A stretch of 12,448 nt of DNA from an uncultured Aquificales bacterium (lineage in GTDB: Bacteria; Thermosulfidibacterota; Thermosulfidibacteria; Thermosulfidibacterales; Thermosulfidibacteraceae). Location: assembly GCA_964453345.1 (NCBI GenBank), contig CAYVOC010000041.1, positions 1 to 12,448 of the forward strand. Reading direction: 5' to 3'. A program made the translations under genes and the position numbers. Positions 1 to 9,507 of the stretch are shown here, piece after piece. The notes beneath the pieces are model-generated. The model was not told the origin of the DNA. It saw only the letters and a list, made by a program, of their open reading frames with translations, and searched no databases. Numbering within the stretch: the stretch's first letter is position 1; every line of letters begins with the position of its first letter.

Positions 1-302
1 ACCTCAAGCTCACAGGATGCTCCATTGTCAACCTTCAACGCCCCTTTCAAAGCCTCTTCAACCAGGCATGCCGGCTCGCAGAACCAGATGGATCTCTCAT
101 AGTAAAAGTATCTTCCGCCCTGCCTGTATAACATCCTGTTTGTGTCAAGAACACCCACGGACTTCACCCTCAATGCCACAGAAGCAGCTCCTACACAGGG
201 CTTAACCGCAACAGGAGGCCTGTATATCTCAACGGGCTTCCTGCTAAATCCCACACAACCCGAAAGCAAAAGCGCAAACGCAATAACAGTGCATCCTCTC
301 AT
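1..302 (-). CDS. ABC-type transport auxiliary lipoprotein (PqiC-like), 5' part only; runs off window start
   Basis: Not in the ORF track; translated by hand from ATG at 302: MRGCTVIAFALLLSGCVGFSRKPVEIYRPPVAVKPCVGAASVALRVKSVGVLDTNRMLYRQGGRYFYYERSIWFCEPACLVEEAL..., open to position 1. It has a lipobox LSG-C after a hydrophobic stretch and a 'DT.RMLYR...YY....W...P..LV...L' pattern typical of PqiC-type lipoproteins. Its ATG overlaps the mlaD stop (ATGA at 299-302). Confidence 0.8.
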   Translation of the reverse strand, partial: MRGCTVIAFALLLSGCVGFSRKPVEIYRPPVAVKPCVGAASVALRVKSVGVLDTNRMLYRQGGRYFYYERSIWFCEPACLVEEALKGALKVDNGASCELE

Positions 303-1141
303 CTTCCCTCCCCCGGTCCCCTCTTTCCGGGAACCCCGTATAGAATAAGGGATGGATCACTCTTTAACCTTCTCGTAAGGGCTTCAAGCTGACCAAGCAC
401 CCTCCTCGATTCCGCAAGGGTTCTTTCAATCTCCACAAGGGTGCCGTTATCAAAGTCCACAGCGGTTGAGTTGAGGGTTCTTATCAGTGAGTTAAGCCTG
501 CCGATCACAGGTTCCACCTTATCGCCCAAGGTTTTATACCTTTCCGCAAGCTGAGAGATTTTCTTTTCGAGCTTCTTCAATTCAAATGTGGCGATCTTCA
601 GATTCTCGGATATGGCGGAAAAATTCTCTATGTTTCTATCGTTGAACATCCTGTTCATGCGATCAAGAAGCTCGTTGGCCCTTGCAAGAAGCTCCGGCAG
701 GGATCTTGAGACCTTTTGTATTTCGGAAAGCTCAAGCTTCACCAAGGGATAGGATTTTCCCCTTATCTTCACCATGTAAGGTGCACCTTCTTTGCCCCCG
801 CTCAGGCTTATGTAGGAAAGCCCCGTTATGCCCACAGGCTGAATCTGGGCGACCGTGTCCCTGTGGATGGGAACCCCTTTCTTTATCTTCATAAATATCA
901 CTATGATGTTCGGGTCCTCCGGATGTATCTCTATCCCGACGACCTTACCCACATCCACCCCCTTGTAGCGAACGGGAGACCCTACCCTTATTCCGGAAAC
1001 GGACTCCTCCGTGAGTATCACATAGGTCTCATACTCTCCCCTGCCCCTGTATCCATACATCCAGAGAACAAAGGCGACCGACACGGCGATAAAAAGAAGC
1101 AAAAAGGCTCCCACCACCACATATTTGGGTTTAGGATCCAC
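299..1141 (-). CDS. mlaD: MlaD/MCE-domain substrate-binding protein with long C-terminal helical region
   Basis: N-terminal TM anchor (YVVVGAFLLLFIAVSVAFVLWM), MCE motifs 'SVSGIRVGSPVRYKGVDVGKV' and 'GITGLSYISLSGG', amphipathic helical tail ending 'LKSDPSLILYG'. GTG start overlaps the mlaF stop by 11 nt. Confidence 0.9.
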   Translation of the reverse strand: MDPKPKYVVVGAFLLLFIAVSVAFVLWMYGYRGRGEYETYVILTEESVSGIRVGSPVRYKGVDVGKVVGIEIHPEDPNIIVIFMKIKKGVPIHRDTVAQIQPVGITGLSYISLSGGKEGAPYMVKIRGKSYPLVKLELSEIQKVSRSLPELLARANELLDRMNRMFNDRNIENFSAISENLKIATFELKKLEKKISQLAERYKTLGDKVEPVIGRLNSLIRTLNSTAVDFDNGTLVEIERTLAESRRVLGQLEALTRRLKSDPSLILYGVPGKRGPGEGR

Positions 1142-1886
1142 TCAGCAACCTCCTGCCCCTTTCACCGGTTATGAGCTGTTTTACCCAGGGATCGTCCACT
1201 TCAAAAAGCCCCTCCACAGCCCCGGAGTATATCACCCTGCCCGAGGACAGAACAGCAACCCTGTGGGAAATCCTCAGGCTTGCAAGATCGTGGGTTATCA
1301 TCACCACCGTTGTTCCCAAAAGCCTGTTTATGTCCGAAAGGGTTCGGTCAAACTCATCGGCGCTTATGGGGTCAAGACCGCTCGTGGGCTCATCAAGAAA
1401 GAGGATATCCGGATCAAGGGCAAGGGCTCTGGCAAGGGCCGCCTTTTTTTTCATGCCCCCCGAAAGCTGATCGGGAAACATGTTGAAGACATCTTCGGTA
1501 AGGTTGGCAAGCTTAAGCTTTAAAAGCGCCATTTCGCAGGCCACATCCTCGGGAACCTTGTGCTTTTTCCTTATCACATAGACTATGTTCTCCCCCACTG
1601 TTATGGAGGAGAAAAGGGCGTTTGCCTGAAAAAGAACCCCCATGCGGCGTCTCAAGGCATCCCTTTCGGCGTCGGAAACCCTAAAGGCGTCCACCCCGTA
1701 GATGTAGACTTTTCCGGACACAGGCCTTTTCAAAAGAAGCATCACTTTAAGAAGCGTGCTCTTTCCGGCACCGCTTCCTCCAAGAATGGAGAGTATCTCG
1801 CCCCTTCTAACCTCAAGGTTAAGTCCTTTATGTATAACCCTCTCCCCGTAGGCGGTGGTGAGGTTTTCTATCCTAAGCAGATCCAT
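1131..1886 (-). CDS. mlaF: MlaF/Mkl-family ABC transporter ATP-binding protein
   Basis: Walker A GGSGAGKS, Q-loop LFQ, signature LSGGMKKK, Walker B/D-loop ILFLDEPTSGLDP, H-loop ITHD. ATG at 1886 (MDLLRIENL) is preferred over the track's TTG at 1913. Confidence 0.92.
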   Translation of the reverse strand: MDLLRIENLTTAYGERVIHKGLNLEVRRGEILSILGGSGAGKSTLLKVMLLLKRPVSGKVYIYGVDAFRVSDAERDALRRRMGVLFQANALFSSITVGENIVYVIRKKHKVPEDVACEMALLKLKLANLTEDVFNMFPDQLSGGMKKKAALARALALDPDILFLDEPTSGLDPISADEFDRTLSDINRLLGTTVVMITHDLASLRISHRVAVLSSGRVIYSGAVEGLFEVDDPWVKQLITGERGRRLLSGS

Positions 1887-2391
1887 CCGAGATCCTGTAT
1901 CCCCTCTTTTCAAGGTATGCCCCCAGAAGAGCCGAGCTGATCAGAACCAAGGGCAATGAAACCAGCATCCTGACCGCGGTGAACTTCACCCCCAAGAAAC
2001 TCGCCTCAAAAACGGTCATGGGGATACGGCACACAGCGGAAGCCCCCACATAGGCGAAAATCACACCAAGCCTTGCTCCCTTGTTGTAGAGGGCGTAGGC
2101 AACCGGAAAGGCCACATAAAGGCCCCCCACCGTGGTTCCTGCAAGAAGCACAGCCCAGAGATACCCTCTTATCCCCGAGGTCCTCCCCATGTGGCGCTCA
2201 ACCGTCTCCCTGCTCACCCACACCTCAAACAGACCTATGAGCACGAACACCGGGGGAAGTATCTTCAGCATATAGAGGCCAAAGGTAGCAAAATTTTTCC
2301 CGATCTCCCTTCCAGGAGCAAAGCCAAAGATATAGCTGAACAACAGAAAAGCAGCGTAGCCCGAAAACAGAATCCACTTTCTAAACGTCAT
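1873..2391 (-). CDS. Half-size permease, DUF318/ArsP-like family (second of pair)
   Basis: 172-aa hydrophobic protein with about 4-5 TM segments and the motifs 'LPPVFVLIGLFEVWV', 'GGLYVAFPVAYALYNKGA' and 'RIPMTVFEASFLGVKF', which resemble paired DUF318-type permeases. ATGA overlap with the upstream gene at 2388-2391. Confidence 0.75.
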   Translation of the reverse strand: MTFRKWILFSGYAAFLLFSYIFGFAPGREIGKNFATFGLYMLKILPPVFVLIGLFEVWVSRETVERHMGRTSGIRGYLWAVLLAGTTVGGLYVAFPVAYALYNKGARLGVIFAYVGASAVCRIPMTVFEASFLGVKFTAVRMLVSLPLVLISSALLGAYLEKRGYRISDGSA

Positions 2392-2870
2392 AGCGACACC
2401 TCACCGAAGAAGATGCCCGTTGCAATGGCCACGATCATTGCGATGAGAAAGCTGATCAGGTTCCTGACGATCGCCACCCTGACACCGAAGTAGCTCTTCT
2501 CCACGGGAAAGGTCAGAACTCCGACCATCATAAGGGTTGTGGTAAAGGCCGAAAGGACCATGTAGGGAACCCCTTTCTTGAGCAATATACCGCACAGGGG
2601 AAAGACTATGAATCCCGGCATGAAGGTTATGCTGCCTATGAGAGAAGCAACAAGCGTTGCGGTAAATATCTTCTTCGAAGAGAGATACTCGGCAATGAAC
2701 CTGTCGGGAACAAGGTAGAGAACCAGAGAAACAAGAATGAGCATTTCGATAAAGGCAGGCAGAATCTTGAGAAATCTTTTCGCGGCTATCTTCACCGCCT
2801 TGTATGTTCTTTCCCTGTCCATGAACCAGGAAAAAAGGAGCAAAAGAAAGACCCCGGGATACAGCCACAT
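2388..2870 (-). CDS. Half-size permease, DUF318/ArsP-like family (first of pair)
   Basis: 160-aa hydrophobic protein with the motifs 'GSITFMPGFIVFPLCGILLKKGV' and 'MVGVLTFPVEKSYFGVRVAIVRN', visibly parallel to those of its neighbour. Starts 1 nt after the mlaE stop. Confidence 0.75.
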   Translation of the reverse strand: MWLYPGVFLLLLFSWFMDRERTYKAVKIAAKRFLKILPAFIEMLILVSLVLYLVPDRFIAEYLSSKKIFTATLVASLIGSITFMPGFIVFPLCGILLKKGVPYMVLSAFTTTLMMVGVLTFPVEKSYFGVRVAIVRNLISFLIAMIVAIATGIFFGEVSL

Positions 2871-2871
2871 G

Positions 2872-3954
2872 CTACACCCCCAGCACCCTGAAGATCACAG
2901 AAAAAATCGCATCTATCACCAGAACCCCGAATACGCTCACCACAACGCTCTCTATAACCCTCGCTCCAACGCTCTCGGCCCTCTTTTCAACGGTAAACCC
3001 CTTCCAGGTCCCCACAAGAGCAACAAAAATTCCAAAAACCGGAGCCTTAACAACGCCGGCCCAGAAGTGATGCGGGGCAAGCACCGCCTCCATACGCTTC
3101 ACAAACTGCACGAAGTCCACATCGAGAATGGCTTTTGAAACCAGCATCCCTCCAAAAATCCCCACAAGATCGGAAAAGACCACCATGAGAGGGGTCACCA
3201 CCACAAGGGAAAGTATCCTCGGTAGAACCACCACGACAAAGGGGGAAACGCCCATCACCTCGAGGGCGTCCACCTCCTCGTTCACCCTCATGGTTCCTAT
3301 GGTTGCGGTGTAACTGCTGGCGCTTCTACCCGACATGAGAACCGCAACTATCAGGGGAGAAAGCTCCCTGACCACCGAAAGCACAACCAGATCCACAATG
3401 AATATGTTTGCGCCGAATCTGGCAAGCTGGGCAGCGCTCTGGTAGGCTATAACAACGCCGATCAAAAAGCTTAAAACCCCTATTATGGGAACGGCCCTCA
3501 GGCCCATCTCCTGCACATCCCTGAAGAAGGATCTAAGCTCAAAGTCCCGGTAATTCCTCACGGTTTCAAGAAAAAGACGGCCCACAAAATCCAGAAAAGA
3601 CAGAATGGAGAGCAGTCTTATCCAGCACCAGTCAAGAAAGTCCTCAACGAGGGATCTACCCTTGGCTGAGGGACAGGCTCCCCTCTTTTCCAGAACAAGA
3701 CGGATAAGATCAAGTATCTCCTTTTTATCACATACAAGGGAATCAAAAGAGAGCCCTTCCTTCTCCATAAGCCTGACAATCAGAAGGGCACCGAAGGTAT
3801 CCAGCTCCTCAAGTCCGGAAAGATCAATAGAAGAAAAACCGGAAAGCCTCTCCACCTCAGAAAAGCACCCCTCAAGGCCTTTCAGCGTCCATTTTCCCTT
3901 GAGGAATAAAACCTTACCTTCGAAGCTATAGAGGTTGCAGCACAAAGAGGACAT
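2872..3954 (-). CDS. mlaE: MlaE-family ABC permease with N-terminal STAS (MlaB-like) domain
   Basis: C-terminal MlaE motifs 'VRELSPLIVAVLMSGRSASSYTATIGTMRVNEEVDALEVMGVSP...VLPR'; N-terminal 'LKGKWT...IDLSGLEELDTFGALLI' is STAS-like. Start is uncertain: ATG 3954 abuts GGGAGG directly, while TTG 3945 has a 9-nt spacing. Confidence 0.9.
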   Translation of the reverse strand: MSSLCCNLYSFEGKVLFLKGKWTLKGLEGCFSEVERLSGFSSIDLSGLEELDTFGALLIVRLMEKEGLSFDSLVCDKKEILDLIRLVLEKRGACPSAKGRSLVEDFLDWCWIRLLSILSFLDFVGRLFLETVRNYRDFELRSFFRDVQEMGLRAVPIIGVLSFLIGVVIAYQSAAQLARFGANIFIVDLVVLSVVRELSPLIVAVLMSGRSASSYTATIGTMRVNEEVDALEVMGVSPFVVVVLPRILSLVVVTPLMVVFSDLVGIFGGMLVSKAILDVDFVQFVKRMEAVLAPHHFWAGVVKAPVFGIFVALVGTWKGFTVEKRAESVGARVIESVVVSVFGVLVIDAIFSVIFRVLGV

Positions 3955-5005
3955 CCTCCCCGAGTCTGCGAAGAGAAACGGGCTTCAGCCTTACGGACTC
4001 ATCAATCCTGCCGATACCCGAAAGGGATACAGCCCCTATCCCTCTTCCCACTATTTTTGGAGAGATGATCACCTGAACCTCATCAAAAAGCCCCCTCCTG
4101 ATGAAGGAAGCATGTATCTTTGATCCACCCTCAACCAGAAGATTCGTGACTCCCCTTTCCCCCAGCAACCTCAGCACCTCATCCAGATCAACCCCGCCAT
4201 CCGCCTCCGGCACAAAAACAACCTCAACACCCCTTCTCTCAAGCTCCCTCACCTTTCCATCATCACCCCTTACCGAGAAGACAAGGGTGGCAGGGGGCAC
4301 AGAAAAGATCCTTCTATCAAGGGGGAGGGAAAGATCACCGTCAAGGACCACCCTCAAGGGGTTCCTTCCTCTGACAAGCCTCACGGTCAACAGGGGATCG
4401 TCCACCATAACCGTCCCGGACCCCACAAGAACAGCATCGGCAAAGGCTCTAAGCCTATGCGCATGTCGCAACGCCACCGGACAGCTTATCCACTTGGAAT
4501 CGCCACTTTCTGTGGCGATCCTGCCGTCGATGCTCTGCGCCCACTTGAGAATAACATAGGGACGCTTTGTCCTCACCCACTTGAAAAAGCCCCTGTTCAA
4601 CCTGTGGCAAAGATCCTCACAGACGCCCACCCTGACCTCTATTCCATGCTCCTCAAGAATCCTCACGCCTTTACCGGAAACCGCCGGATTGGGATCAAGG
4701 ACTCCCACAACAACCCTTTTTACCCCGGATCTGATTATGGCCTCCGTGCAGGGAGGGGTCTTACCGTAATGACAACAGGGCTCAAGGTTCACATAGAGGG
4801 TGCAACCCTCAGCCCTGTAGTCTATCTTCTCAAGCGCCCGCCTTTCAGCGTGAAGATCCCCGTAGCGGGGATGGTAATCCTCTGAAAGGATCCTTCCATC
4901 GGGAGAAACCACCACAGCCCCAACCATGGGATTGGGGCTGACGAACCCCTGCCCCCTGCGGGCAAGGGCAAGGGCCCGCTTCATGTAATACTCATCAGAC
5001 CTCAT
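3926..5005 (-). CDS. ribD: Bifunctional riboflavin biosynthesis deaminase/reductase RibD
   Basis: '[11 protein letters not shown]', Zn-deaminase motifs HAE and '[14 protein letters not shown]', reductase motifs '[11 protein letters not shown]...SKWIS', 'DDPLLTVR', 'LLVEGG'. ATG at 5005 is preferred over TTG 5014. Confidence 0.97.
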
Positions 5006-5393
5006 AAACCTCAAAGGGCCTTTCCGCCCTCTTCACCTCCACGATTCTGTTGTTCTCATCAACGAACACGAGGGTGGGAGACCACCTCACGGCCTCCTCA
5101 TGGGGCATGTTCACATAGCAGGCAATGATCACCTTGTCCCCAACAGCGACTTTTCTGGCAGCAGCACCGTTCAAACAGATAACCCCGCTTCCAGGCTCCC
5201 CCTCTATAACGTAGGTGTTAAAGCGCTCACCGTTGGTTATGTTCCAGATTTCCACCACCTCGTAGGGCAGAATCCCGGATGCCTCAAGCAACTCCTTATC
5301 AATGGTTATGCTGCCCACATAGTAAAGATTTGCTTCAGTAACCGTTGCCCCGTGAATTTTGGCAAAAAGCATTCTCCTGGCAAGCCCCCTCAT
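4995..5393 (-). CDS. panD: Aspartate 1-decarboxylase proenzyme
   Basis: '[21 protein letters not shown]' pyruvoyl self-cleavage site, '[10 protein letters not shown]', 'ICLNGAAAR'. ATGA overlap with panC. Confidence 0.97.
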
Positions 5394-6241
5394 AGCTCAT
5401 CCACCCCCAGCTGAACATTGTCTATAAGCCTTGCAGGTCCCACAAAAACGGCAAGGGCCACAAGTGTCCCCTTTTCAACCCTCTCAACCGGCTCAAAGGT
5501 TTCAGGATCGACCACCTCAACATAGTCTATTCTTGCCAAGGGTTCCGCCTCTATAATCCTGACAACCTCCTCCCTTATCTTAGAGGCATCCCTCTCGCCG
5601 GACTCGAACAGCTCGACGGCCCTTTTCAGCGATCTGTATAGACAGGTGGCCGCCTGCCTCTCCTCAGGGGAAAGGTAGGTGTTTCTGGAACTCATGGCCA
5701 GGCCATCCGGCTCCCTGACTATGGGCATGGGAACTATCTCAATGTCCATATTGAGATCCCTGACCATATTTTTGATCACCACATACTGCTGAAAGTCCTT
5801 TTTGCCAAAGTAGGCCCTGTGGGGCATAACGATATTGAAAAGCTTGGTGCAAACGGTGCACACACCCCTGAAGTGACCCGGACGGGAAGCACCGCACAGC
5901 TTGTCGGTTATGCCCACAACCTCCACATAGGTCCTGTATCCCTCAGGATACATCTCCTCCACAGAGGGATAGAAGACCGCATCAACCCCTATAGGCTCCA
6001 GAAGCTTCATGTCCCTATCCAGATCCCTGGGATAGCGGTTGTAGTCTTCGTTGGGGCCGAACTGGGTGGGGTTGACGAATATGCTGACCACAACCCTGTC
6101 GTTCTCCTCCCTTGCACGCCTTACGAGGCTAAGGTGCCCCTCATGCAGGTATCCCATGGTGGGAACAAAACCTATGGTCTTGCCCTCATCCCTCCACCTG
6201 CGGGATAGCGCCTTCATCTCCTCAACGGTTCTCACCAGCAT
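5390..6241 (-). CDS. panC: Pantoate--beta-alanine ligase
   Basis: '[13 protein letters not shown]', 'SIFVNPTQF', 'RPGHFRGV', 'FGKKDFQQ', 'DGLAMSSRN', 'RLIDN'. RBS-like AGGGGT in the 12-nt gap after panB. Confidence 0.98.
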
Positions 6242-6253
6242 GGCAACACCCCT

Positions 6254-7054
6254 TTACAGATAGCTGTGCTCTTCATCGGGGAACTTGCGCTCCCTGACCT
6301 CGCTCACATAGCTTCTCACAGCGTCAATTACCTGCTCCCTCAGGTTGGCATACCTTTTGACAAACTTGGGCTTGAATTCCTGGAAGATTCCCAGAACATC
6401 ATGGTAAACCAGCACCTGCCCATCACAATGGGGACCGGCACCTATGCCTATGGTGGGTATGCTCAACTCTTCGGTTATCTCCCTTGCAAGGCCAGCGGGA
6501 ACCGCCTCAAGCACTATGCTGAAGCACCCGACCTCCTCCAAAAGCTTCGCATCCTTCTTAAGCCTTGCGGCGCTCTCCTCATCCCTGCCCTGGACCCTGT
6601 ATCCCCCAATCCTGTGAATGGACTGGGGGGTCAATCCTATATGGCCCATAACGGGAATACCGGCGCTCGTTATCTTGGCTATGGCCTCCAGAACCTCCTC
6701 CCCTCCCTCAAGCTTAACCGCATGGGCACCGGCCTCCTTTATGAACCTTCCCGCATTATCCAGCGCCTGCTCAGGAGACAACTGATAACTCATGAAGGGC
6801 ATATCACCCACAACCATGGCCCTCTTCGATCCCCTCACAACAGCGGCCGTGTGCCTGAGCATATCTTCCATGGTTACAGGAAGCGTATTCTCATATCCCA
6901 GAACCACCATGCCCAGGGAATCTCCCACAAGGATTATATCAACCCCCGCCTCATCCACCATCTGTGCAGAGGGGTAATCGTAGGCGGTGATCATGACTAT
7001 GGGTTCACCTGCATCCTTTTTTCTTTTGAGATCCACCACCGTTACTCTACCCAC
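6254..7054 (-). CDS. panB: 3-methyl-2-oxobutanoate hydroxymethyltransferase
   Basis: 'MITAYDY', 'LVGDSLGMV', 'DMPFMSY', 'AVKLEGG', 'GHIGLTPQS', 'TIGIGAG..CDGQVLV'. GTG at 7054 follows AGGGGGT (7066-7060) by 5 nt and gives a normal 266-aa protein. The track's start at 7138 lies inside the structured leader. Confidence 0.97.
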
Positions 7055-7066
7055 ATCCCACCCCCT

Positions 7067-7106
7067 AAAAGAAAAGGCCCTTCCGGACCGAGCCGGAAGG
7101 GCCCTT
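7067..7106 (-). terminator. Rho-independent terminator (attenuator) immediately upstream of the panB RBS
   Basis: Minus strand GGCCCTTCCGG (7103-7093), loop CTCGGT, CCGGAAGGGCC (7086-7076): a perfect 11-bp GC-rich stem followed by TTTTCTTTT (7075-7067). Confidence 0.9.
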
Positions 7107-7120
7107 GCAATCCACCCTTT

Positions 7121-7154
7121 GCCGTCTCGGTCCCTCAACAGGGATCCAAGCGGC
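7121..7154 (-). ncRNA. pan RNA motif-like cis-regulatory hairpin
   Basis: Minus strand GCCG-CUUGG-A-UCCCU-[GUUG]-AGGGA-CCGAG-A-CGGC folds into a 14-bp stem with one bulged A on each side. It sits directly upstream of panBCD, matching my recollection of the pan motif (CCGCUUGGAUCC...GGACCGAGACGG). No covariance-model search was run. Confidence 0.8.
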
Positions 7155-7159
7155 CCTGA

Positions 7160-7192
7160 ATGTTACCTACTTCAAACTTTTTAAAATGTCAA
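7160..7192 (-). promoter_or_regulatory. Candidate sigma70 promoter for the pan leader
   Basis: Perfect TTGACA (7192-7187) overlapping the maeB TGA stop, then an AT-rich spacer. The -10 is imperfect: TAGGTA at 17 nt or TAACAT at 21 nt. Either would start transcription at about the 5' end of the pan hairpin. Confidence 0.45.
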
Positions 7193-9507
7193 GGAATCGG
7201 GGTGTCGCCGTCCTCCTGCTTCTTCCTCAGCTCCTCCTCAATATACTGGGCCTCAACCACTCCTATGGCCGCCAAGTGGGCGATTTCAGTTGGGGAGGAT
7301 CCCCTCTGCAGCACCTGAGCAGATTTGCTCAAGCCCTGAAGGATGGGGCCAACCACTATGGCACAGCCCATTTTATTGCATATCTTGTAAGCAATGTTTC
7401 CAGCGTTCAGATCGGGGAAGATCAAAACATTTGCAGGCTCATCAAGGCTGCTGAAGGGATAGGTGTTGTGCAGTATATCCGCATCCAAGGCGGTGTCCGC
7501 CTGCATCTCTCCATCTATAACGATGTCGGGTCTTCTCTCCTTCACTATCCTGACCGCCTCTGCAACCTTCTGGGCCTCCGGATGGTTCACGCTCCCGAAG
7601 TTGGAGAAGGAGAGCATGGCGACCCTCGGCTCAACACCGAAGCGCCTGGCCGTATCAGCCGTTGCAATGGCGATCTCCGCCAGATCTTCAGCAGAGGGAT
7701 TGATGTTCACAGTTGTATCAGCGAAGAAGTAAACCTTCTCCTTAACTATCACCATGTAAACACCGGAGACTATCCTCATGCCCTCAGCAGGCTTGATGAT
7801 CCTGAGAATGGGAGCAAGGGCATCGGAGTAGTGCCTGTTCTCACCCGTGATGATCACATCTGCATCGCCCTTGTAAAGCATAAGCGCCGCCAGGGTTTCG
7901 GGGTCATGGGTCACGAGCCTCAGAGCCTCGTTGTAGGTAACGCCCTTTCTGTTTCTTAACTTATACAGAAGCTCGGCATACTCCTGGGCCTTGTCAAAGT
8001 TGAGGGGATCGAGGATCTCAACATCCTTAAGCTCCAGCCCCACCTCAGCCATGGTCTTCTTCACAGCCTCAGGATTGCCGATGAGCACGATCTTCTTGGC
8101 AAAGCCCTCGTCCTTAACGATCTGGCAGGCCCTGATGATCTCCTTATCGTCGCCCTCACAGAAGACGATCCTCTTGGGAGACTTCTTGGCCCTGTCAATT
8201 ATGCGCCTCATAACCTCACCGGCCTTGCCCTTGAGGCGCTTCTCAAGCTGGATCCTGTATTCCTCAAAGTCCTCTATGGGCTTTCTGGCAACGCCGCTCT
8301 CCATGGCCGCCTTGGCGACTGCAGGGGCAACCCACAGGGGAACCCTGGGATCCACGGGCTTGGGAATGATGTAATCCCTGCCAAACTCAAGGTGATCGAG
8401 ATCGTAAGCCCTCAGAACCGATTCAGGCACCTCCTCCCTCGCAAGGGCAGCCAGGGCCTTGGCCGCAGCCAGCTTCATCTCCTCATTTATGGCGCGGGCC
8501 CTCACATCCAAGGCGCCCCTGAAAATGTGGGGGAATCCAAGCAGATTGTTAACCTGGTTGGGATAGTCGGAACGGCCGGTCGCCATTATGGCGTCGTCCC
8601 TTACTGCAAAGACCTCCTCAGGTGTGATCTCGGGATCGGGGTTGGCGCAGGCGAAGATTATGGGATTTTTGGCCATCTTCTTGATCATCTCCTGGGTGAA
8701 GGCCCCCTTAACGGAAAGTCCCAGAAGAACGTCCGCACCCTCAACCGCCTCCTCAAGGGTCCTGACGGGAAGATCGGTGGCGAACTGCTCCTTATAGGGG
8801 TTCATTCCCGCCTGACGCCCCTTGTATATGACGCCTCTGCTATCGCACATAATAATGTTTTCCTTTTTAACGCCTATAAGCATAAACATCTTGGCACAGG
8901 CGATACCAGCAGCCCCGGCGCCGTTTATCACCACCTTAACGTCCTCAGGCTTCTTGCCAGCCAGCTCCAAAGCGTTTATAAGCGCAGCAGTTGTGATAAT
9001 GGCCGTTCCGTGCTGATCGTCATGGAAAACGGGAATGTTCATAATCTCACGGAGCTTCTCCTCAATGTAGAAGCACTCAGGAGCCTTGATATCCTCAAGG
9101 TTTATTCCACCGAAGGTGGGTTCCAGATTCTTCACCACCGTGATGAACTCATCGGGGTCCTGGGTCTCCACCTCTATGTCTATGGCGTCAATGTCCGCAA
9201 ACTTCTTGAAAAGCACACACTTTCCTTCCATAACGGGCTTTCCGGCAAGGGCGCCTATATTCCCAAGCCCCAACACAGCCGTTCCGTTGGATATAACGGC
9301 CACAAAATTGCCCTTTATGGTGTAAAGATAGGCCTTCTCCGGATCCTTATGAATCTCCTCACAGGGCCAGGCAACTCCGGGGGTGTATGCTATCGAAAGA
9401 TCCCTTTGAGTAACGCAGGGCTTGCTGACAATTATCTCAAGCTTTCCGGGACGACCGGACATATGATATTCAAAAACCTCCTCCTTACGCACGGTTACTT
9501 TGTGCAT
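7189..9507 (-). CDS. maeB: NADP-dependent malic enzyme fused to phosphotransacetylase-like domain
   Basis: 772 aa. Malic enzyme motifs 'AYTPGVA', 'GKPVMEGK', '[11 protein letters not shown]', '[11 protein letters not shown]', 'NGAGAAG', '[13 protein letters not shown]'; C-terminal PTA-like motifs 'FFADTTVN', '[10 protein letters not shown]', 'DGEMQAD', '[14 protein letters not shown]', 'GPILQG'. RBS GGGGAGGG upstream. Confidence 0.97.

What the first reader, a model, noticed from the sequence alone, without database searches (positions are those of the whole stretch)
7067..7157. Complete three-helix attenuator switch built on a pan-motif hairpin
Seen (minus strand): (A) a pan-like hairpin at 7154-7121 with two bulged As; (B) a terminator at 7103-7067; (C) an alternative helix joining the 3' arm of A to the 5' arm and loop of B. 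In C, GGACCGAG (7133-7126) pairs with CUCGGUCC (7092-7085). After an A/G mismatch CGG (7124-7122) pairs with CCG (7096-7094), and after a CA bulge AAGGGU (7119-7114) pairs with GCCCUU (7102-7097), 16-17 bp in total. C is incompatible with both A and B, and the entire terminator loop is complementary to the hairpin core, which is unlikely by chance. Established: the pan motif is a bioinformatically defined leader of pantothenate genes, and to my knowledge its ligand or binding protein is unresolved. Inference: stabilising A (by a CoA/pantothenate-responsive protein or a metabolite) blocks C and lets B terminate (OFF); otherwise C gives read-through. This is a compact, testable OFF-switch model for an orphan RNA motif.
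Basis: partly seen in the sequence, partly recalled or inferred. Interest (0 to 1): 0.78.

Follow-up and report, generated by a model that had tools for sequence, protein, structure and literature searches.

The report
Pan-hairpin attenuator before vitamin B5 genes
The leader of this bacterium's vitamin B5 (pantothenate) genes carries one copy of the known but still unexplained "pan" RNA hairpin, wired to a terminator and a competing helix so that it can probably switch the genes off; it is a real, conserved but expected member of a known family.

Summary
On the minus strand lie a 13-bp hairpin with two bulged A (7154-7121), a strong intrinsic terminator (stem 7106-7073, U tract to 7067) and a 17-bp alternative helix C (7133-7114 with 7102-7085). 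C excludes both of the others.

The hairpin matches the second hairpin of Rfam pan (RF01749) at 28.8 bits, below the 36.2 cut-off. A conserved promoter places the transcript start about 3 nt before the hairpin, so there is no room for a first hairpin. panB-panC-panD follow 13 nt after the U tract.

Helix C is not chance:
- Of 88 predicted terminators in this genome, this one pairs best with the hairpin's 3' arm (-27.9 against -19.1 for the next).
- In 14 leaders of the phylum the terminator loop is the best-conserved segment, while the linker has drifted.
- The 8-bp core forms in 13 of 14 leaders.
- Three other lineages join the same hairpin arm to their terminators through different pairings.

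Most likely a factor that stabilises the hairpin blocks the antiterminator and terminates transcription. The effector is unknown. This scan had already noted pan attenuators on other genomes. It is a new member of a known kind.

The parts
7187..7192 (-). -35-like hexamer TTGACA; it contains the TGA stop (7191-7189) of the upstream malic-enzyme/PTA gene
   Evidence: Read. TTGAC-type hexamers lie 38-50 nt before the hairpin in all 14 phylum leaders printed. ORF end.
7164..7169 (-). -10-like hexamer TAGGTA, 17-nt spacer; predicted transcript start near A7157
   Evidence: my loose rule found a -10-like hexamer at 16-18 nt spacing in 11 of 14 leaders. The generic promoter scan did not list it (TAGGTA matches only 2 of 6 consensus positions), so the start is predicted, not shown.
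7121..7154 (-). Helix A: single pan-type hairpin, 4+5+4 bp, bulged A7145 and A7125, loop 7140-7135. Acts as the anti-antiterminator and is the presumed sensor
   Evidence: -21.2 kcal/mol. Rfam RF01749 28.8 bits, E 0.0037. The arms are 93-95% conserved in 14 leaders.
7085..7133 (-). Helix C, the antiterminator: 7133-7126 with 7092-7085, 7124-7122 with 7096-7094, 7119-7114 with 7102-7097 (17 bp). Incompatible with A and with B
   Evidence: -28.2 kcal/mol; 83.8% of cells paired, 8-bp core standard-paired in 13 of 14. Own-genome control.
7067..7106 (-). Helix B: intrinsic terminator, stem 7106-7073 with loop 7092-7087, U tract 7075-7067
   Evidence: 14 pairs, 9 G-C; -26.5 kcal/mol. Loop identity 0.94 over 14 leaders, 1.0 without G008.
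7059..7065 (-). Ribosome-binding site GGGGGUG of panB
   Evidence: Read. It lies 4 nt before the GTG at 7054.
6254..7054 (-). panB (ketopantoate hydroxymethyltransferase), GTG start chosen by alignment with relatives
   Evidence: Pfam PF02548, E 3.4e-126, residues 3-260. N-termini of relatives.
5390..6241 (-). panC (pantoate-beta-alanine ligase)
   Evidence: Pfam PF02569, E 3.2e-118.
4995..5393 (-). panD (aspartate 1-decarboxylase)
   Evidence: Pfam PF02261, E 2.7e-50.

Best explanation
The leader of panBCD is a transcription attenuator with three competing helices. Transcription starts about 3 nt before a single pan-motif hairpin (A). Downstream lies an intrinsic terminator (B), 13 nt before the panB start.

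The 3' arm of A, together with a purine-rich tail, can instead pair with the 5' arm, the loop and the first two bases of the 3' arm of B. This forms antiterminator C. When an effector holds A closed, C cannot form, B forms and transcription stops (OFF). The effector would be a protein or a metabolite reporting pantothenate or CoA sufficiency. When A is not held, C competes with it on nearly equal terms and lets polymerase read into panBCD.

Shown: the helices, their mutual exclusion, their conservation and the gene context. Inferred: the transcript start, that A is the sensor, the direction of the switch and the identity of the signal.
For: Anatomy and energies. Pan identity. Operon.

B must be read through for panB to be expressed. 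Only 13 nt lie between the U tract and the GTG, and a promoter is conserved upstream of A.

C is specific. It is the best of 88 terminators in the genome. For 10 of 14 phylum leaders the cognate terminator pairs better than all 87 background terminators, and for 13 of 14 at most 2 background terminators do as well.

Selection acts on the terminator loop. Its identity is 0.94, against 0.82-0.84 for the stem arms, 0.37 for the linker and 0.28 for the pan loop.

The principle recurs with different pairings. A contiguous helix of 7 bp or more that includes at least 3 nt of hairpin A is found in 9 of 14 leaders (own phylum), 6 of 7 (G027 phylum), 31 of 33 (G079 order), 4 of 21 (G080 class) and 2 of 5 (others). 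That is 52 of 80 leaders with a terminator.

The A and C states are balanced at the decision point. The median difference is +0.4 kcal/mol over 13 leaders at 37 C, range -5.4 to +5.4.

Direction: in G018 the panB ATG sits at the apex of pan hairpin 2. There too, closing the hairpin would mean OFF.
Against: There is no experimental or RNA-seq evidence; no RNA run was listed.

The Rfam score is below the gathering cut-off.

In this window's own leader the A state is computed as 5.4 kcal/mol more stable than the C state at 37 C, and 1.5 at 60 C. C is never the minimum-energy fold of the growing transcript. By these parameters termination might therefore be the default even without an effector.

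The 8-bp core of C shows no compensatory changes, because both strands are nearly invariant; only one-sided G-U changes occur.

One of the 14 leaders (G008) has a different terminator and no convincing C (-9.9 kcal/mol).

In the G080 class only 4 of 21 leaders reach the 7-bp criterion.

Related genomes are not independent samples.
Confidence: 0.7

Rival explanations
1. Same three helices, opposite default. A plus B is the ground state, so the leader terminates unless a factor melts A or stabilises C, giving an ON switch under shortage. Such a factor could be a protein that binds the single-stranded 3' arm, or an uncharged or unmodified cofactor-related molecule.
For: The minimum-energy fold of the full leader and of every growing transcript is A (+B). 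In this leader A is favoured over C by 5.4 kcal/mol at the decision point at 37 C.
Against: What is conserved across phyla is the closed hairpin with its bulged A residues, not the single strand. In 6 of 13 phylum leaders C is already the more stable state at 37 C, and in 11 of 13 at 70 C. The translation-type arrangement in G018 also points to hairpin closed = OFF.
Confidence: 0.12
2. Helix C is not used. B is a leaky constitutive terminator (also ending the upstream malic-enzyme gene), and the pan hairpin acts in another way, for example on RNA stability or as a protein landing site.
For: No terminator separates the upstream gene from the leader, so B could also end that transcript. The core of C shows no compensatory covariation.
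Against: The terminator loop is the best-conserved segment of the leader, although loops of terminators are normally free to vary. Complementarity to the pan arm is the strongest of 88 terminators. Leaders in relatives with other upstream sequence keep the arrangement. Other lineages reach the same overlap by other pairings.
Confidence: 0.1
3. The roughly 90-nt product from the promoter to the terminator is mainly a stand-alone small RNA acting in trans.
For: It has a promoter, a stable 5' hairpin and a strong terminator.
Against: It is always immediately upstream of pantothenate/CoA genes in the leaders examined. No downstream promoter can fit in the 13 nt before panB.
Confidence: 0.04
4. Ribosome-mediated (leader-peptide) attenuation.
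For: A 16-codon GTG frame (from 7114) runs through the terminator (read).
Against: It has no properly spaced ribosome-binding site. The linker where it starts is the least conserved part of the leader (identity 0.37), and its length varies among relatives.
Confidence: 0.02

Closest known systems
pan motif, Rfam RF01749 (Weinberg et al. 2010, PMC2864571; I read the 'pan motif' passage of the main text and the alignment in supplementary file 4, parts 27-28)
   Same: A stem interrupted by two conserved bulged A residues. Conserved letters on both arms (GGAUC ... GACCGRGAC). A purine-rich tail. A position upstream of panB-panC-panD.
   Different: One hairpin instead of the usual tandem, so the score is 28.8 bits against the 36.2 cut-off. 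The host is a small phylum: 18 genomes held, one order. I did not identify it by name, so I cannot say whether it is one of the three phyla the 2010 paper counts. The passage that I read suggests a dimeric protein-binding motif and names no terminator or antiterminator, and the published alignment stops about 5 nt after hairpin 2. I could not read Additional file 1 (.DOC), which may say more.
PyrR-type attenuation of the Bacillus pyr operon (recalled from general knowledge, not from a call)
   Same: Three-helix logic. A binding hairpin acts as an anti-antiterminator; when it is held closed the antiterminator cannot form, and a terminator upstream of biosynthetic genes fires.
   Different: The hairpin sequence and shape differ, and the best Rfam match here is pan, not the PyrR site. 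The binding factor here is unknown.
OFF-type transcriptional riboswitches, and the guanidine-II (mini-ykkC) precedent of very small hairpin aptamers (recalled)
   Same: A sensor fold overlaps an antiterminator that overlaps a terminator. The element is small and often tandem, and it was first guessed to bind a protein.
   Different: No ligand is known for pan. Reviews from 2022 state that no CoA riboswitch has been validated (passages read). A 34-nt hairpin with two single-base bulges offers little room for a pocket.

Membership tests
pan motif (RF01749) | Score at or above Rfam's gathering cut-off (36.2 bits) with the two-hairpin covariance model | tested here: not met
   28.8 bits, E 0.0037; nothing at the gathering threshold. 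Only model hairpin 2 aligns with high posterior. The 'first hairpin' falls on the upstream coding sequence and the promoter. In the phylum 3 of 18 genomes pass the cut-off and 13 of 18 match at E <= 0.1.
pan motif (RF01749) | [quoted passage not shown] | tested here: met
   A7145 and A7125 flank the 5-bp helix 7150-7146 / 7130-7126. The definition comes from the passage read.
pan motif (RF01749) | Conserved letters of hairpin 2 (GGAUC on the 5' arm, GACCGRGAC on the 3' arm, purine-rich tail) | tested here: met
   Alignment to the model consensus. The same letters appear in rows of the 2010 alignment.
pan motif (RF01749) | [quoted passage not shown] | tested here: met
   panB, panC and panD follow directly.
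pan motif (RF01749) | [quoted passage not shown] | tested here: not met
   The predicted start lies about 3 nt before the hairpin, so no second hairpin fits. The paper says 'most', not all, and its alignment holds single-hairpin rows. This does not exclude membership.
Intrinsic (factor-independent) terminator | A G+C-rich stem-loop directly followed by a U tract | tested here: met
   14 pairs, 9 of them G-C, then UUUUCUUUU.
Anti-antiterminator / antiterminator / terminator attenuator | Three helices, each excluding its neighbour, upstream of the regulated gene | tested here: met
   C shares 7133-7121 with A and 7102-7085 with B. It is conserved in 13 of 14 leaders.
Anti-antiterminator / antiterminator / terminator attenuator | An effector that shifts the balance between the helices | not testable with these tools
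   No effector is known. No RNA runs were listed.
Riboswitch | Direct, selective binding of a small molecule by the RNA | not testable with these tools
   This needs in-line probing or ITC. The reviews read list no CoA or pantothenate class.

The most novel reading that the evidence does not exclude
The single 34-nt pan hairpin is by itself a complete small-molecule aptamer for a late product of the pathway (CoA, 4'-phosphopantetheine or a relative), which would make this the long-missing CoA-pathway riboswitch. Two observations leave room for it. One hairpin suffices in this phylum. Pan hairpin plus terminator leaders also precede type III pantothenate kinase genes in another lineage (3 genes confirmed by Pfam), which points to a signal downstream of pantothenate rather than to pantothenate itself.
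Probability: 0.12. Interest if true: 0.85.

Novelty: new member of a known kind. Interest (0 to 1): 0.4.

Why it matters
The pan motif has been an orphan since 2010. In the library that I could search, only its discovery paper and annotation lists mention it.

This leader is compact: about 90 nt, with one hairpin, one antiterminator and one terminator. That makes it a convenient template for single-round transcription assays in which candidate metabolites or cell fractions can be screened.

Four lineages tie the same hairpin arm to their terminators by four different pairings, and a fifth genome buries the panB start codon in the hairpin. Together these give a consistent prediction: closing the hairpin turns the genes off.

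The gain is a sharper, testable model for a known element, not a new kind of element.

Tried and rejected
- Rfam at gathering thresholds over the whole window found nothing.
- No RNA holder was listed for window 6900-7400, so no read-laying was possible.
- My pattern scan of genome contigs was too loose. The other 105 were set aside as chance matches in G+C-rich genomes.
- Phylum-wide searches around G018 and G057 added little: 1 genome, and 2 of 7.
- A generic bulged-hairpin finder gave many false hits and was replaced by a signature filter.
  - Loci L002, L014, L021 and L147 lack that signature and were left out of the counts.
  - L151-L154 duplicate L044, L089, L094 and L081 and were dropped.
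- A leader-peptide reading was rejected because the linker is not conserved.
- I could not read Additional file 1 (.DOC) or the PDF figures of PMC2864571. They may describe expression platforms of pan RNAs.
- I did not attempt a search for the binding protein: no candidate emerged from the gene neighbourhood.

Full report
**What is there.** I read the region on the minus strand.
- The upstream 772-aa gene (malic enzyme plus phosphate acetyltransferase domains) ends with a TGA at 7191-7189.
- That stop lies inside a TTGACA hexamer (7192-7187). After a 17-nt spacer comes TAGGTA (7169-7164).
- Hairpin A follows at 7154-7121. It has a 4-bp base, bulged A7125 on the 3' strand, a 5-bp central helix, bulged A7145 on the 5' strand, a 4-bp top and a 6-nt loop.
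- After a 14-nt linker comes terminator B. Its stem is 7106-7073, with 14 pairs (9 G-C) and a loop at 7092-7087, followed by UUUUCUUUU to 7067.
- Thirteen bases later, after a GGGGGUG ribosome-binding site, panB starts at GTG 7054. panC and panD follow (Pfam E 3.4e-126, 3.2e-118 and 2.7e-50).

It is exactly as described: 8 + 3 + 6 bp joining 7133-7114 to 7102-7085. A script that checked every listed pair found no non-standard pair in A, B or C, with energies of -21.2, -26.5 and -28.2 kcal/mol at 37 C. The whole leader folds far better than shuffles (z -4.0).

**Is the hairpin a pan motif?** At Rfam's gathering thresholds nothing in the window matches. With permissive thresholds on 6950-7300 the best match is pan (RF01749), at 28.8 bits and E 0.0037 against a cut-off of 36.2.
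- The model has two hairpins. Only the second aligns with high posterior, letter for letter on the conserved positions.
- The "first hairpin" is laid over the end of the upstream gene and the promoter.
- Weinberg et al. [quoted passage not shown] - Their alignment contains single-hairpin rows and ends about five bases after hairpin 2, in a purine-rich tail (supplementary file 4, parts 27-28).
- I therefore file this as a single-hairpin member. The curated score is not reached, and the missing first hairpin explains why.

**Is helix C more than chance?** Three lines say yes.
1. *Control within the genome.* I predicted 88 intrinsic terminators in the window's own 1.5-Mb genome. I then computed the duplex of each 5' arm plus loop with the pan 3' arm and tail. 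The panB-leader terminator is the best at -27.9 kcal/mol; the next is -19.1, the mean -9.1 and the sd 4.1.
2. *Conservation within the phylum.*
   - The phylum holds only 18 genomes here, all in one order. Pan matches occur in 13 of 18 at E <= 0.1, and one more at E 0.105.
   - In an alignment of the 14 leaders the mean column identity differs sharply by segment:

     | Segment | Identity |
     |---|---|
     | Arms of A | 0.93-0.95 |
     | Loop of A | 0.28 |
     | Linker | 0.37 |
     | Arms of B | 0.82-0.84 |
     | Loop of B | 0.94 (1.0 without G008) |

     A terminator loop that is better conserved than its own stem calls for an explanation, and pairing with the invariant pan arm supplies one.
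   - On that alignment the 8-bp core of C forms a standard pair in 13 of 14 sequences. Overall 83.8% of cells are paired, against 27-59% when the partner is slid by 1-3 columns.
   - The core shows only one-sided G-U changes, because both strands are nearly invariant. This is conservation, not covariation. One leader (G008) has a different terminator and no convincing C (-9.9 kcal/mol).
3. *Other lineages.* I assembled 100 leaders with a signature pan hairpin. Chance pattern matches, duplicates and four loci without the signature had been dropped first. Of the 100, 80 have a terminator by my criteria. The longest contiguous helix between the pan 3' half and the terminator differs by lineage.

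   | Lineage | Commonest pairing (pan side with terminator side) | Leaders with a helix of 7 bp or more that includes at least 3 nt of hairpin A |
   |---|---|---|
   | Own phylum | GGACCGAG with the terminator loop | 9 of 14 |
   | G027 phylum | CGAGACGG with the apex CCGUUUCG | 6 of 7 |
   | G079 order | CGGAAGG(Y) with the 5' arm GCCUUUCG | 31 of 33 |
   | G080 class | CCGAGA with UCUCGG | 4 of 21 |
   | Others | various | 2 of 5 |
   | Total | | 52 of 80 |

   The signal is strong in three lineages and weaker in the fourth. The G079 order was reached from a Desulfuromonadales record and the G080 class from a Dehalococcoidia record. Against the 87 background terminators, the cognate terminator was beaten by at most two in 13 of 14, 5 of 7, 22 of 33 and 11 of 21 leaders of the four lineages. 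Kin are not independent, so these counts overstate the number of independent events. The four different pairings are independent solutions, however.

**How it most likely works.** B must be read through for panB to be made, since nothing but a ribosome-binding site fits between them. A TTGAC-type hexamer lies 38-50 nt upstream of the hairpin in all 14 leaders, and my loose rule found a -10-like hexamer at 16-18 nt spacing in 11 of 14. The generic promoter scan did not list the site in this window, so the start near 7157 is a prediction.
- A is transcribed first and folds.
- The tail (7119-7114) can pair with the emerging 5' arm of B without disturbing A. It then serves as a toehold from which the loop of B invades A.
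- At the decision point, when the transcript ends with the last base of C, the best A-containing and C-containing folds are close in energy. The median difference is +0.4 kcal/mol over 13 leaders at 37 C (range -5.4 to +5.4), and -0.9 at 70 C.
- Such a balance is what a switch needs. A few kcal/mol of binding energy on A would decide for termination.
- The element conserved across phyla is the closed hairpin with its bulged A residues, so A is the likely sensor. Binding to A can only favour B.
- In G018, a genome of another phylum with a tandem pan RNA (54.8 bits), the only possible panB start codon sits at the apex of hairpin 2, and the ribosome-binding site abuts its base. Closing the hairpin means OFF there as well.
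In this window's own leader A is computed as 5.4 kcal/mol more stable than C at 37 C (1.5 at 60 C), and C is never the minimum-energy fold of the growing transcript. The reverse default, termination unless something opens A, stays open as a rival.

**What is the signal?** It is unknown.
- The hairpin has a rough two-fold symmetry. Each strand reads C-N-N-R-G followed by the bulged A, which would suit a dimeric protein, as the 2010 paper suggested.
- A single hairpin suffices in this phylum, which weakens the argument from tandem repeats.
- In the Dehalococcoidia-like class, pan hairpins precede genes other than panB. These are DUF2520/Rossmann proteins, S58 peptidases and, in three leaders, type III pantothenate kinase (Pfam E about 1e-72).
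- A kinase that consumes pantothenate and shares the control element with the biosynthetic genes argues, by inference only, for a signal downstream of pantothenate, such as CoA.
- Reviews from 2022 state that no CoA riboswitch has been validated (passages read).

**What is known and what is new.**
- In the searchable library the bacterial pan motif appears only in its discovery paper and in annotation lists of two Bacillus transcriptome papers (searches; passages read). None of the passages that I read describes a terminator or antiterminator platform.
- I could not read the 2010 paper's Additional file 1 or its figures.
- Earlier agents of this scan had already described pan hairpins wired to terminators on five other genomes, including a single-hairpin form and a Dehalococcoidia-like one. 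I reached the same reading independently on this window and partly re-tested theirs on Dehalococcoidia-like leaders.
- The finding is therefore a real and cleanly built new member of a known family, with a lineage-specific antiterminator that reaches into the terminator loop. It is useful as a compact assay template for an orphan RNA, but it is not a new kind of system.

Noticed in passing
window 7187-7192 (minus strand): The stop codon TGA of the upstream malic-enzyme/PTA gene lies inside the -35 hexamer TTGACA of the panBCD promoter. The same CCTTGAC junction is seen in the genus relatives L016, L019 and L011, and in L010.
   Followed up: partly
L002 (G018) 1518 downward, minus strand: In a genome of another phylum with a tandem pan RNA (54.8 bits), the panB ATG is at the apex of pan hairpin 2. 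This is a translation-level platform instead of a terminator.
   Followed up: partly
L198, L202, L212; L185, L193, L191; L188, L206: In a Dehalococcoidia-like class, pan hairpins precede type III pantothenate kinase genes, DUF2520/Rossmann genes and S58 peptidase genes rather than panB. In the kinase leaders the terminator follows the hairpin after only 8 nt, and I saw no clear antiterminator.
   Followed up: partly
L003 (G008): This is the one leader of the phylum with the same pan hairpin but an unrelated terminator. Its loop lacks the conserved loop motif, and the best alternative helix is only -9.9 kcal/mol.
   Followed up: partly
window 1873-2870 (minus strand): Two adjacent short ORFs (160 and 172 aa) each match the same N-terminal half of the ArsP_1 permease profile (positions 4-134 and 14-137 of 294). 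They look like tandem half-size permease genes.
   Followed up: no
window 299-3954 (minus strand): An Mla-like set lies downstream of ribD: a MlaE permease with an N-terminal extension of about 140 aa, an ABC ATPase and a MlaD protein. The two half-size ArsP_1 permease ORFs (1873-2870) sit inside it, between the MlaE permease and the ABC ATPase.
   Followed up: no
L155-L184 (G079 order) against L004-L015 (own phylum): Terminator stems of two distant lineages share nearly the same sequence (GCCUUUCGGAC ... GUCCGAAAGGC). This is probably convergence forced by pairing with the conserved pan tail and arm.
   Followed up: no
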